In this document: positions 14,635-45,055 of the stretch, one piece after another
Layout: each line of letters begins with the position of its first letter
Numbering within the stretch: the stretch's first letter is position 1
Origin: Okamejei kenojei
Taxonomy: Eukaryota
Length of the DNA: 64,000 nt
NCBI GenBank assembly: GCA_035221665.1
Contig: CM069133.1
Location: 78,430,001-78,494,000, forward strand
Direction: 5' to 3'
Notes under the pieces: generated by a model
What the model was told of the DNA's origin: nothing
The model's database searches: none
Seen by the model: only the letters and a program-made list of their open reading frames with translations
Translations under genes and position numbers: made by a program

Positions 14635-14641
14635 AGCTTAG
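14635..14641 (+). other. candidate 7-nt microexon or recursive AG|GT splice site
   Basis: TTCTGAC branch-like motif, TTCCACTTCCTCCTTTTCAG acceptor, AGCTTAG, then GTAAGC donor. Confidence 0.25.
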
Positions 14642-34888: not shown

Positions 34889-35985
34889 CATTTTTTACAG
34901 ACACTCACTTGTTAGAATGATTCAATTTAAGCTAAAAGCAGAAATTACCACAATTACTTTGCAGGTCAGGCACCATCTGTGGAGTGAAAAATGTGAGCTG
35001 ATGTTACAGTGGACAATTAACTGACCGACCTGCAGTCAAAAACGTTGCATCAGAACTGCATAATTCGAATTTAAAAAATTGAATTGGTTCTTATCTGAAG
35101 TTGTTGAATTCGATGCTGAGTTTAGGGCTCTGGCATGCCATGAGGGAAGAGAGATGCTGTGCCTTGAGTTTATAGTGAGCTTTATTGAAGCAGTGAAAGC
35201 AGCCATTGACATGGATGTTAAATTAGGGGTGAGAGTGGGATGGAGAATTCAAGTGAAAAGAATTGGAAGTTTCCGGTCGTTCTTACTGATTGAATGGGTG
35301 TATCCTTCAATATGGTCACTCAATCTACATTTGGCTTCACCATGGAGAAGACCACATTATTAGAGCACTCAAGTTAAAGTCTCATCTGACAGTGAAAAGC
35401 ATTTCATAGCTGAGTAGCTGTAAGTGTAGTATTATCCTGAGGTTTCTGGAGCAGGGTTCAGCCTGTGGTGCCCCGTTTCAGCAATGAGAGCGTAATGACT
35501 GTTTCTGTTCATAAGTTCGTAAGTTCATAAGTCAGAGGAGTGGAATGAGGCCATCGAGTCTGCTCCACCATTCAATCATGGCTGACCTATCTTTCCCTCT
35601 CAACCCCTACTCCTGGCTGTGCTGATCTGTGCTCAAGTTGTTATCATCCTCTCTGAGGTAAATCACATGGTTTTAGTTGGTTAAAATTAAAAGTTATTCT
35701 GCTGGTAATTCAGTAGTTTTCTTGCGTACACTCTGCAGTTGCAATGCCTTGGAAACTAACACCTGTAACTATGCTCAGTAAACTTCAATACACAAGGTTT
35801 TGTTAGAACAGAGCGAGTTTCTTTTCTGTATCAGTTAGAAATGTGTTGTTGTAAATTATTATCAGCTTTGTTGCGTGGGCAGTTAAGTATGGATAGGTTA
35901 TTATCTGTTTGATGCCTGATTAAAAAAATGTTGACAGAAAAATCACTGAGATTCCAATACACATTCCTTCCAATGTTCAACCTTT

Positions 35986-36227
35986 AGTGTTAAAGAAGGA
36001 ACTGCAGATGCTGGAGAATCGAGGGTACACAAAAGGCTGGAGAAACTCAGTGGGTGCAGCAGCATCTAAGGAGCGAAGGAGATAGGCGACGTTTTGGGTC
36101 GAGACCCTTCTTTAGACTGAAGCTGTAAGTGTCAGACTGAAGAAGGGTCTCGACCCGAAACGTCGCCTATCTCCTTCGCTCCTTAGATGCTGCTGCACCC
36201 GCTGAGTTTCTCCAGCCTTTTGTGTAC
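35986..36227. mobile_element. fold-back Penelope-derived hammerhead insertion
   Basis: Two inverted copies; intact core at 36137-36164; 16-bp TSD CCAATGTTCAACCTTT (35970-35985, 36228-36243). Confidence 0.88.
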
Positions 36228-36470
36228 CCAATGTTCAACCTTTTTTGTTTTAGACTTTGCTTCAGTTTTTAATCAAAAAAACATTTCTCACTTGGGAGAA
36301 ATCATTTCCTTACAGTGGGAGAAACTGAATTGGATGTTTACATATTTCATGCATTAATCCCATTCCAGGCTCTCTGCTCCACGTCAATCATTCCAATTTG
36401 TCATTCCACCCCTCCCTGTATTTCCTACCATCTCACATTCTTCCACTTACCCTGCCTCTCACTGTTACAG

Positions 36471-36479
36471 ATGTGCACT
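36471..36479 (+). other. candidate 9-nt frame-preserving microexon (ATGTGCACT)
   Basis: ~100-nt AG-free pyrimidine/YCAY-rich tract, TGC near the acceptor, TTACAG acceptor, GTAAGT donor. Confidence 0.45.
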
Positions 36480-37803
36480 GTAAGTGACTTAAGGTTAACT
36501 CTTTTTTCCACATGTATTGTTTTTGTTGTGGTCCGGTTAACACAAGATGAAATAAGAAAATTACCAGATAATAATATTTTCTCAACTAATCAAAGATCAT
36601 AAATATTAAATGTTCTGTTTTACAGTCTTAAATACTTCCTGGATACAATTTCTCAAAACAGTGGAGGCTGGCAGGAGATATATTAGACATTGCTATAATT
36701 ATGAGAGGCTTAGTTAGGGTAGAAAGTCAGAACATTTTTCCTGGGGTGGAAATGTTAAATACTAGACACCATAACTTTAAAGTGAATGTTTAAAGGAGAT
36801 GTGCAGGGCACGCTTTTTTATACATCAAAAGCAGTAGGGGCCTTGAATGCACTACACTACCAGGAAGGTCATAAAGTCATACATCGTGGAAATTGGTCCT
36901 TTGGCCCAACTTGCCCACATCCGACCATCTTGTCCCATCTATGTTAATCTCACCTGCCTGCGTTTGCCCCATATCACTCTAAACCTATCCTATCCATGTC
37001 CCTGTCTAAAGTTTCTTAAATGTTGTGATAGTACCTGCTTCAACTACCTCCTCTGGCAGCTCGTTCCTTATACCCATCACCCTTTGTATCAAAAAGTGAC
37101 CCCCTCGGGTACCTATTTAATTTTTCTCCTCTCACCTTAGGCCTATGTCCTCTGGTTCTCGATTCCCCTACTCTGGTCAAGAGACTCTGTGTTCACCCAA
37201 TCTACTGAGTTGGCAGCAGCAGATATGATAGTTGTGTTTATGAAGCTTTTAGACGGGCATGTGAATATGGAGGGAATGAAGGCATGTGAATCACTTGCAG
37301 GCAGAAGGGATTAGTTTAATTTAGTATCATGTTCAACACGGGCATTGTGAGCTGAAGGTCCTGTGCCTGTACTGTATTGCTCTATGTTGCATATTGAAAG
37401 AAGATGGAAGATAAATTTATATTACATTTATCTATCATATGTAAAATTGCATTCCATTTTTAAAAAAAGCATGCCCTGTACAACTCCTTTAAACATTCAC
37501 TTTATAGTTATGGTCTCTAGAACTTGACATTTCCACCCCAGGAAAAAAAGTTATGACTTTCTACCCTAACAAAGCCTCTCAGAATTTTAGTAACTTCTAA
37601 AAGATCTTATGCCATCCTCTACTGTTTTGAGAACTTGTATCCAGGAAGTATTGAAAACAGTAAAACAGAACATTTAATATTTATGATCTTTGATTAGTTG
37701 AGAAAATATTATTATCTGGTAATTTTCTTATTTCATCTTGTGTTAACCTGACCTCAACAAAACCAAAACATGTGGAAATAAAAGTTAACCTTAACTCACT
37801 TAC

Positions 37804-37812
37804 AGTGGACAA
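37804..37812 (-). other. inverted paralog of the candidate microexon (TTGTCCACT)
   Basis: Minus strand reads CTCACTGTTACAG|TTGTCCACT|GTAAGTGA. Confidence 0.35.
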
Positions 37813-38079
37813 CTGTAACAGTGAGAGGGTAAGTGGAAGAATGTGGGAGGGGGTAAAATACAGGGAGAGGGCAGGATGACAAATTGGAATGATTGACGTG
37901 GAGCAGAGAGCCTGTAATGGGATTAATGCATGAAATATGTAAACATCCAATTCAGTTTCTCCCACAGTAAGGGCATGATTTCTCCCAAGTGAGAAATGTT
38001 TTTTTGATCAAAAACTGATGCAAAATTTAAAACAAAAAGGTTGAACATTAGAAGGAATGTGCATTGGAATCTCAGTGAC

Positions 38080-38159
38080 ACAAAAAGCTGGAGAAACTCA
38101 GCGGGTGCAGCAGCATCTAAGGAGCGAAGGAGATAGGCGACGTTTCGGGTCGAGACCCT
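38080..38159 (-). mobile_element. truncated Penelope-derived insertion (5' end lost inside the hammerhead)
   Basis: 22-bp TSD TGTGCATTGGAATCTCAGTGAC (38058-38079, 38160-38181). Confidence 0.88.
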
Positions 38160-38907
38160 TGTGCATTGGAATCTCAGTGACTTTTCTGTCAAAATGTTTT
38201 TTCAGACAGCAAACAGATAATAACCTATCACCATACTTAACTGCCCACACAACAAAGCTGATAATAATTTACAGCAACACATTTCTAACTGATATGGAAA
38301 ATAAACTCGCTCTATTCAAACTTGTGTATTGAAGTTTACTGAGCACAGTTACAGGTGTTAGTATCCAAGGCATTGCAACTGCCAAGTGTACGCAAGAAAA
38401 CTACTGAATTACCAGCAGAATAACCTGGAAGATACACTTCAGATTGTTAGTTAGTTTCATTAACATAGATAGATCAGTTATGATTGAATGGCAGAGTAGA
38501 CTTGATGGGCTGAATGTCCTAATTCTGCTTATACTTGATTTTATTAATGACATAAACTTATGAACTATGCATCGGCTGATTTGAATGCCACAGGTGCACT
38601 CCTCAGTGGACAGTGGATATCCTGGTTCATTCAAAGCGCTAGGTGGGAACCATCAGATGGTCATGGAAGGAACACACTTCTCCACATTTTTCTCTATGAA
38701 ATCGGTAACAACCTTGGAGTATCCATTCAAGTTGTTGCCGAGTTCTTGAACATCACCCAGTGTATCGAGTTCAAATAATTATTAAGTTGCTCCTCTGACT
38801 CCCCTGATCAGCTCTGTGTAGTCCTCTGTGCGGGTGCTGCATTCTTCAGACATTGCCTTTCTGCAGGTGGTCTGATTTGCTAAAGTGTGGGTGAAGATAG
38901 GATCAAT

Positions 38908-43706: not shown

Positions 43707-44664
43707 AGTGTTCACGCGAACCATGGTCTGCATTGGGGCTGGCTCCATTCTTGCATGGTATCAGCAAAGTTGTATGGTTAGCAGTACTTCCTGCTTGGGT
43801 GATATGTCAGAAAGGCAGGAATTGTCTGAACAACAGGAATATCCTGCACGACTACGTCTGAAGGATCTCATTGCTGGTACTGCCCTCAGTGAACATTATC
43901 TACCATAGGCTTTATCCATCCTGGGACTGGGAATACTGAATCCAGGCTCAAATGTTAGTGTCAGTCTGAGAGAATGCATATTTTTTTTTATTCCATTCCC
44001 GGCAGAGCATTCAAAACAAGGTCATGTCTGTCTGATTGATCTGGTACTAATCTCATTGTATTTTGTGCCATCTTCATGTCTATAAATTAGCAGCCAAGTT
44101 TACCTATAAAACTGCCATGTTCGTCAAAGTAATTAATTGAACGCGAGGAATTGAGAGATGTCCCAGTACGCCAGTGGGAAATATAATTAACACTGTTGTG
44201 CCATTGGTTCTGGCAACGATTGATGTAGCCATTTGTACAATCTGGATTGAACTCAACCAAATATCTGTGTGATGGTACGCATGATCACCTGGGTAAGTAG
44301 TTAATATAAAAAACAAAGATCTGATTAACAATCTTCTTAATGGTGGTTATTGGTAATACAAATCTTGTGCAATGTTGTATTTGAGGGATTGCGATGCAAT
44401 TTAATGCCATCAAGGAGCCTGGTTTGGCAGTAGCAAAACCATACACTTGACACACTTGATATTAATTTCCTAGCAATTAAATTGACAGTGACAAAATAGT
44501 ACATGACATGTAGAAATGACAGGTGAAGCTTGCCACCAAGATTTTGATGAGCTGCATGATACAATTTCTATCAGAACGCTTGTGTGAGGAAATTATGGAT
44601 ATTTGCTTTGGAACTTAAATATTTTGGTTTTCTTTGAGTGTTCTGAATAGGCTGCTGCATGAAT

Positions 44665-45055
44665 GGTACACATCTGGATCACTGCCATAATTTTCCATCA
44701 CTCAACATAAAATGCACACCTGGGTGCCACAGCCAAGTTTTTCCATCACTCACCACCCAATTCACATCTGGATGACACTGCCATGATTACCTTTGCTCAC
44801 CAGACAATGTACACCTTGGTGACACTGCCTCGATTCATTGCAGCAATATACAGTGCACATCTGGATAACAATCCAATGTTTTCCATACCCAAACCTTCAA
44901 TGCATATGTGGATGGCAGTGCACATCTGGATGGCACTGCCATGATTTTCCATTACTCCATCTGCAATGCACATCTGGATCATACTGCCAAGATTTCCCAT
45001 CACTCAACACATAATTCACATCTGGATGACACTGCCTCGATCTTTCATTATTCAT
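44665..45055. repeat. degenerate ~46-48 bp minisatellite (about 8-9 units)
   Basis: Unit TGCACATCTGGATGACACTGCCATGATTTTCCATCACTC...; CATCTGG cores at 44671, 44765, 44858, 44923, 44971, 45019, variants at 44717, 44812, 44905. Confidence 0.85.

What the first reader, a model, noticed from the sequence alone, without database searches (positions are those of the whole stretch)
35693..38424. Candidate neural microexon trapped in a ~1 kb inverted duplication (potential pre-mRNA hairpin switch)
Seen: arms 35693-36820 and 37461-38424 are inverted copies around a ~640-bp spacer, with no TSD at the outer edges. The left arm reads a ~100-nt AG-free, YCAY-rich pyrimidine tract, CCCTGCCTCTCACTGTTACAG | ATGTGCACT | GTAAGT. 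The right arm has the same layout on the minus strand (TTGTCCACT) but lacks the proximal TGC. Known: a 9-nt exon with a long AG-exclusion zone, proximal UGC (SRRM3/4) and YCAY clusters (NOVA) is the vertebrate neural-microexon signature. Inference: one copy is a real microexon of an unseen long-intron host gene, and any transcript through the locus could fold into a long dsRNA burying both splice sites, giving exon silencing or ADAR editing. In phase 1 the two copies read x-V-H with a synonymous GTG/GTC change, which is weak support only.
Basis: partly seen in the sequence, partly recalled or inferred. Interest (0 to 1): 0.75.

Follow-up and report, generated by a model that had tools for sequence, protein, structure and literature searches.

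The report
Mirrored mini-exon in PTPRD leader
In a cartilaginous fish, an old backwards copy of about 900 bases sits beside a likely 9-base optional exon in the likely untranslated leader of the synapse gene PTPRD and would pair with it in the RNA, probably an accident of DNA repair that would mute the exon rather than a regulated switch.

Summary
The inverted repeat is real: arms 35693-36819 and 37463-38424, 7.8% substitutions, only two copies in the genome. The unseen host is most likely PTPRD (+ strand). Its start-codon exon lies 341 kb downstream, so the 9-mer cannot be a coding x-V-H insert. If spliced, it is a 5'UTR exon that begins with ATG. The left arm is the original, because a LINE fragment runs on across its inner edge; the right arm is an antisense copy with no target duplication and is also present in a relative. 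The splice signature matches or exceeds this genome's four real PTPRD microexons and is rare in 977 kb (2 sense sites against 0.1 simulated). However, no junction read, editing or deep conservation could be shown, no match was found in the mouse or human tables searched, and the exon zone diverges faster than the arm average. Inverted pairs are common here. Best reading: a repair-mediated duplication that caught a probable UTR microexon and would dampen it constitutively. A regulated hairpin switch is not excluded but is unsupported.

The parts
35693..36819 (+). Left arm, the original (donor) sequence
   Evidence: a LINE fragment aligns across its inner edge in 5 of 14 hits
37463..38424 (-). 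Right arm, the derived inverted copy, antisense to PTPRD, no target duplication
   Evidence: 0 of 7 repeat hits cross its inner edge; no flanking direct repeat; outer junction crossed by a contig of organism C, 38210-38496
36820..37462 (.). Spacer (loop), mostly LINE/SINE fragments
   Evidence: coverage profile
36471..36479 (+). Candidate 9-nt 5'UTR microexon of PTPRD, begins with ATG; splicing not shown
36369..36470 (+). 100-nt AG-free pyrimidine tract with 8 YCAY, UGC at 36453-36455 and the acceptor AG; the AG at 36367-36368 could alternatively open a 111-nt exon
37804..37812 (-). Antisense copy of the 9-mer, 2 of 9 positions differ; lacks the 4 nt that carry the UGC
35984..36229 (.). Palindromic young repeat insertion in the left arm with a 16-nt target duplication (Penelope-like end: name recalled and from an earlier AI note)
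   Evidence: (I6, D20)
38078..38160 (.). 83-nt half of the same repeat family inserted in the right arm, flanked by a ~20-nt direct repeat
36684..36851 (+). Old LINE 3' fragment that crosses the left arm's inner boundary and shows which arm is the original

Best explanation
An old inverted copy of about 900 bases, likely made by DNA-break repair, lies 643 bases downstream of its source in what is likely the long untranslated leader of PTPRD; the source holds a likely 9-base exon, and the copy is predicted to pair with it and would dampen its use constitutively rather than act as a regulated switch. Shown: the repeat, its direction of copying, the PTPRD coding exons downstream on the same strand, and the splice-signal anatomy. 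Inferred: (1) a long PTPRD transcript starts near C3:76.8 Mb and runs through the locus; (2) the 9-mer is an SRRM3/4-type 5'UTR exon whose ATG would open an upstream ORF (9 codons, ending about 80 nt before the main ATG, if joined straight to the start-codon exon); (3) the copy arose by template capture at a break; (4) the duplex forms long before the far-off downstream exon is made, so it would favour skipping and attract ADAR editing.
For: Host: Ig1 exon matches PTPRD at E 3e-30; a second Ig1 exon, the signal-peptide exon 341 kb downstream of the candidate and further exons are all on +. No other coding exon was found from -600 to +520 kb (0 of 130 candidates gave a credible Pfam hit). T-over-A skew is +0.019 to +0.022 from 76.86 Mb through the window and in the known gene, but -0.013 in 19 samples upstream of 76.81 Mb (p 0.01-0.02). 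A tyrosinase-family gene lies 3.1 Mb upstream, as recalled for human synteny. Human PTPRD has an extended non-coding 5'UTR and spans about 2.3 Mb (PMC3395855, PMC9900141, passages). Exon: AG-free 100 nt and 0.775 pyrimidine against 51-93 nt and 0.725-0.775 for this genome's meA3, meA6, meB and meC. Copy: direction, no target duplication, single partner within 5 kb, matching repair-mediated duplications (PMC2671141, passages). Duplex: -764 kcal/mol with the second arm against -253 without; AG and GUAAGU are paired.
Against: No RNA junction was seen. The promoter of a long isoform was not found in 76.86-77.26 Mb, and skew can also come from replication. The mouse MicroExonator table lists two Ptprd leader microexons, both unconserved and neither matching; human tables list only coding PTPRD microexons (partial files). 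Between the arms the exon zone 36405-36534 differs at 18 of 126 columns (14%) against 7.8% overall, and 2 of the 9 exon bases differ, so the arm comparison shows no constraint. At loose thresholds chance gives about 2.7 look-alike sites. The copy is longer than the longest proximal human case in PMC2671141 (619 bp), and no empty site was seen.
Confidence: 0.45

Rival explanations
1. The 9-mer is never spliced: it is a chance splice-like site in a pyrimidine-rich patch, and the repeat is a neutral repair scar in intronic or intergenic DNA.
For: 3773 YAG-short-GTRAG sites occur in 1.26 Mb; simulation gives about 2.7 sites at the real-microexon thresholds. No mouse or human match. The exon zone diverges faster than the arm average. 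Two more low-copy inverted duplications lie nearby.
Against: At strict thresholds 2 sense sites were seen against 0.1 simulated, with no independent antisense site. Long AG-free pyrimidine sites favour the PTPRD strand, 15 against 3 (14 against 3 without the candidate, p 0.006). The ancestral arm is the sense one.
Confidence: 0.37
2. The inverted copy was kept by selection as a regulated RNA switch: the duplex silences the exon, and neural factors or ADAR editing reopen it, tuning PTPRD translation through the upstream ATG.
For: In the predicted duplex the UGC (36453-36456) is bulged out and the A of the ATG is mismatched. The copy is shared with organism C. Runs of 89 and 50 identical nt flank the exon. 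Inverted Alus change splicing of nearby exons (PMC2533698, abstract and section 7).
Against: The bulge follows from one 4-nt gap. The arms have drifted 7.8% with two later repeat insertions and many indels. Age alone explains sharing with a relative about 6% away. Neural microexons depend on an unpaired branchpoint-to-acceptor region (PMC12871342, passages), which this duplex removes.
Confidence: 0.08
3. The constrained element is something else: a longer 111-nt leader exon using the AG at 36367-36368 and the same donor, or an enhancer in the nearly identical flanks.
For: A usable upstream acceptor exists. The best-kept stretches between arms are 36315-36404 (1 difference) and 36535-36623 (none), not the 9-mer. 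The site lies about where the last far-upstream mammalian leader exon would fall (mouse leader intron of 269 kb against 341 kb here; scaling partly recalled).
Against: The upstream acceptor is weaker in pyrimidines; identical runs can come from conversion between arms; no outgroup alignment.
Confidence: 0.1

Closest known systems
Repair-mediated duplications (Pace et al. [quoted passage not shown]
   Same: One extra copy, donor within 5 kb, no target duplication or poly(A); an exon-like sequence ends up antisense inside its own gene.
   Different: This copy is about 900 bp (their proximal maximum 619 bp); breakpoint signature unclear; empty site not seen; the captured element is a putative microexon with all its splice signals.
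SRRM3/4-type neural microexons, including the coding PTPRD microexons meA3, meA6, meB, meC (PMC12871342 passages; PMC7821500 supplement rows; found in this genome)
   Same: 9 nt, canonical sites, long AG-free pyrimidine tract, proximal UGC, same gene and strand.
   Different: Lies upstream of the start codon, so not a coding insert; carries an ATG; no mouse or human counterpart in the tables searched; inclusion not shown.
Inverted intronic Alu pairs that form dsRNA, are edited and alter splicing (PMC2533698 abstract and section 7; PMC13019027 listing only)
   Same: Inverted pair within 2 kb in one intron, long predicted duplex.
   Different: The arms here are single-copy host DNA, and the exon and its splice sites lie inside the stem rather than beside it or in the loop.
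Mouse Ptprd leader microexons at chr4:76534733 (24 nt) and chr4:77815334 (9 nt) (PMC7821500 supplement 2)
   Same: Short exons in the long non-coding leader of the same gene.
   Different: Different sequences; scored there as novel, unconserved and mostly excluded, which shows such leader sites can be lineage-specific noise.

Membership tests
SRRM3/4 neural microexon | 3-27 nt with canonical AG/GT sites | tested here: met
SRRM3/4 neural microexon | Extended pyrimidine tract and proximal UGC | tested here: met
   compared with four PTPRD microexons of this genome
SRRM3/4 neural microexon | On the sense strand of a transcribed intron | tested here: inconclusive
   PTPRD is on + downstream and skew fits, but the upstream promoter was not found
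SRRM3/4 neural microexon | In-frame coding insert (the usual case) | tested here: not met
   start-codon exon is 341 kb downstream
SRRM3/4 neural microexon | Neural-specific inclusion in junction reads | not tested
   no RNA was laid on this locus or on the PTPRD exons
SRRM3/4 neural microexon | Deep vertebrate conservation | tested here: inconclusive
   no match in mouse or human tables; no distant genome available
Repair-mediated duplication | Sequence at one other place, within 5 kb | tested here: met
Repair-mediated duplication | No target-site duplication or poly(A) tail | tested here: met
Repair-mediated duplication | Microhomology, filler or deletion at breakpoints; empty site in a relative | tested here: inconclusive
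   inner end falls in a T run; organism C already carries the copy
Intronic dsRNA splicing modulator / ADAR substrate | Inverted pair within about 2 kb able to form a long duplex | tested here: met
   (prediction only)
Intronic dsRNA splicing modulator / ADAR substrate | A-to-I editing and an effect on inclusion | not testable with these tools
   needs matched RNA and DNA reads or a minigene

The most novel reading that the evidence does not exclude
PTPRD carries an undescribed, uATG-bearing neural microexon in its giant 5' leader, and in this fish lineage an antisense duplicate of that exon acts as a built-in cis 'antisense oligo' that hides both splice sites but leaves the SRRM4 UGC bulged out, giving an editing- or SRRM-gated switch on PTPRD translation.
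Probability: 0.08. Interest if true: 0.75.

Novelty: new member of a known kind. Interest (0 to 1): 0.36.

Why it matters
PTPRD's long leader is hit by neuroblastoma deletions and aberrant splicing (PMC3395855, passages), yet what its small exons do is unclear. A leader microexon with an upstream ATG would link neural splicing to PTPRD translation. A natural antisense copy over a microexon would be a ready test of the proposal that microexons need an unpaired acceptor region (PMC12871342). If the 9-mer is not spliced, this is one more repair scar. Searches for a printed description found none: PTPRD + microexon + 5 UTR + shark, 0 papers with 3 of the 4 terms; inverted duplication + exon skipping + dsRNA, 0 with all 5 terms; searches listed nothing on this case.

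Tried and rejected
Coding x-V-H reading: rejected, the site is upstream of the start codon. Minus-strand host or right arm as the real exon: rejected. A TLR7-like fragment 38 kb upstream as host or synteny marker: rejected, 114 matches genome-wide. A 60-nt exon candidate at -229 kb is retroelement sequence. The 135-aa minus-strand ORF and the 34-aa peptide at the CpG island near +218 kb gave no credible hit. Sequencing runs: no RNA holder listed, which says nothing on expression. Laying four relatives on 20 kb was swamped by repeats; only a few long pieces were usable, so base-level conservation of the exon in relatives remains open. The metagenome pattern scan gave 0 matches, uninformative for a fish. 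Rfam gave only below-threshold miRNA hits on the palindromic repeat. LINE/SINE orientation bias was inconsistent. The long-isoform promoter was not found in the 400 kb read; 76.81-76.86 Mb, where the skew turns, was not read. Conversion between arms as the source of the right-arm repeat piece was considered; its own target duplication favours a separate insertion. Supplements not seen that could hold a human or chicken counterpart: PMC12871342 (unreadable), files 13-19 of PMC7935315, file 1 of PMC4317164, file 13 of PMC12626420.

Full report
Observation. The repeat is as described: arms 35693-36819 and 37463-38424 around 643 nt, with 73 substitutions in 934 aligned columns. The core has two matches in the genome, the arms themselves. 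The left arm carries a palindromic young repeat with a 16-nt target duplication; the right arm carries a separate half of the same family. The 9-mer, its splice sites, the 100-nt AG-free tract, the UGC and 8 YCAY are at the stated places.

Host gene. I read 600 kb upstream and 800 kb downstream of the window, plus 400 kb and 20 samples further upstream. A rough exon scan and Pfam on 130 candidates found no coding exon near the window. At +526 kb lies an exon matching the first Ig domain of PTPRD (E 3e-30 against PTPRD, 1e-23 against PTPRS). The preceding Ig1 exon, a 165-nt signal-peptide exon at +377 kb and later exons are all on +. A CpG-rich, promoter-like region with a + strand donor lies at +218 kb; I take it for the short-isoform promoter from recalled human structure. 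The candidate is therefore 341 kb upstream of the start codon and 182 kb upstream of that promoter, and is transcribed only if a long isoform exists in this fish. That is inferred, not shown. Human PTPRD has an extended non-coding leader and spans about 2.3 Mb (PMC3395855, PMC9900141, passages). T-over-A skew in low-copy DNA is about +0.02 from 76.86 Mb through the known gene (28 of 40, 50 of 81 and 45 of 64 blocks positive) and -0.013 upstream of 76.81 Mb (7 of 19; p 0.01-0.02). A tyrosinase-family gene lies 3.1 Mb upstream. Against this, no promoter was found in the stretch read, and replication can also cause skew.

Direction of copying. Other copies of an old LINE align straight across the left arm's inner edge in 5 of 14 hits and across the right arm's inner edge in 0 of 7. 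The left arm plus spacer is thus the original, and the right arm is a later antisense insertion without target duplication. A contig of organism C crosses the right arm's outer junction, so the copy predates that split; long pieces from other relatives of that group (organisms E and G) differ by about 6%, near the 7.8% between arms. This fits repair-mediated duplication: donors within 5 kb, and one human case of an exon copied backwards into its own gene (PMC2671141, passages). Such pairs are not rare: 19 alignments at about 16 places in 1.26 Mb, 3 of them in low-copy DNA.

Is the 9-mer an exon? This genome's own PTPRD microexons have AG-free zones of 51, 63, 93 and 62 nt and 0.725-0.775 pyrimidine; the candidate has 100 nt and 0.775. 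In 977 kb upstream of the start-codon exon, 3 of 686 low-copy + sites and 1 of 701 - sites (the copy) pass AG-free >=60 and pyrimidine >=0.72. Simulation expects 0.1 sites at the strict level where 2 are seen, but 2.65 at the loose level where 7 are seen. Against it: the mouse table lists two Ptprd leader microexons, unconserved and unlike this one (PMC7821500 supplement 2); the human tables searched list only coding ones; and the exon zone differs between arms at 18 of 126 columns, with 2 of the 9 exon bases changed, though without an outgroup the changes cannot be assigned to an arm. I put the odds that it is spliced near even.

Mechanism. If spliced, the exon adds an ATG to the leader. Joined directly to the start-codon exon it would open a 9-codon upstream ORF ending about 80 nt before the main ATG (from the exon's first frame); other leader exons could change this. 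In a + transcript the arms fold into a duplex of -764 kcal/mol against -253 without the second arm, pairing the pyrimidine tract, AG and donor; the UGC is bulged out and two exon bases are mismatched. Inverted pairs this close are edited and can alter splicing (PMC2533698, abstract and section 7), and neural microexons favour an unpaired acceptor region (PMC12871342, passages). The plain expectation is constitutive damping. A regulated switch needs selection or tissue control, for which I have no evidence beyond the suggestive bulge.

Verdict. It is a new member of a known kind of duplication that happens to enclose a credible, untested PTPRD leader microexon. Interest 0.36; 0.75 if the switch were shown, which I put at 8%. 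Other papers seen: PMC12626420 (supplement rows), PMC7265247 (passages), PMC13019027 (listing only). Human exon positions and the repeat family names are recalled.

Noticed in passing
L019:1591-2167 (C3:78.39 Mb, 38 kb upstream of the window): A frameshifted ~590-bp TLR7 ectodomain fragment (best PDB hit TLR7, E 2e-23) has 114 matches across the genome, many 85-97% identical. Two copies share a 2.3-kb surrounding unit at 93%, while the C12 copy with a 516-aa open frame shares only the 588 bp: probably a host immune-gene piece captured and spread by a mobile element.
   Followed up: partly
window 14635-14641 (+): A second microexon-like site on the PTPRD strand: 7 nt, strong acceptor, 87-nt AG-free zone, in single-copy DNA next to a repeat.
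   Followed up: partly
window-relative -115162 (25 nt), -99984 (60 nt), -80360 (39 nt), all +: Further small exon-like sites that could be PTPRD leader exons; 60 and 39 nt equal recalled human leader exon sizes.
   Followed up: no
window 35970-36243 and 38058-38180: The same young palindromic repeat family inserted separately into both arms at nearly the same paralogous spot, each with its own target duplication.
   Followed up: partly
window-relative -111425..-109561 and 492745..493743: Two more inverted duplications of low-copy DNA (390 bp at 97%, 214 bp at 93%) in the PTPRD region.
   Followed up: partly
window-relative 665589, 666186, 669091, 718781 (+): PTPRD coding microexons meA3, meA6, meB and meC are present in this genome.
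   Followed up: yes
C3:76.81-76.86 Mb: T/A skew changes sign here, a candidate place for the long-isoform promoter; not read.
   Followed up: partly
window 44659-45054: Diverged tandem array of ~46-48-nt units (D5 and D6).
   Followed up: no
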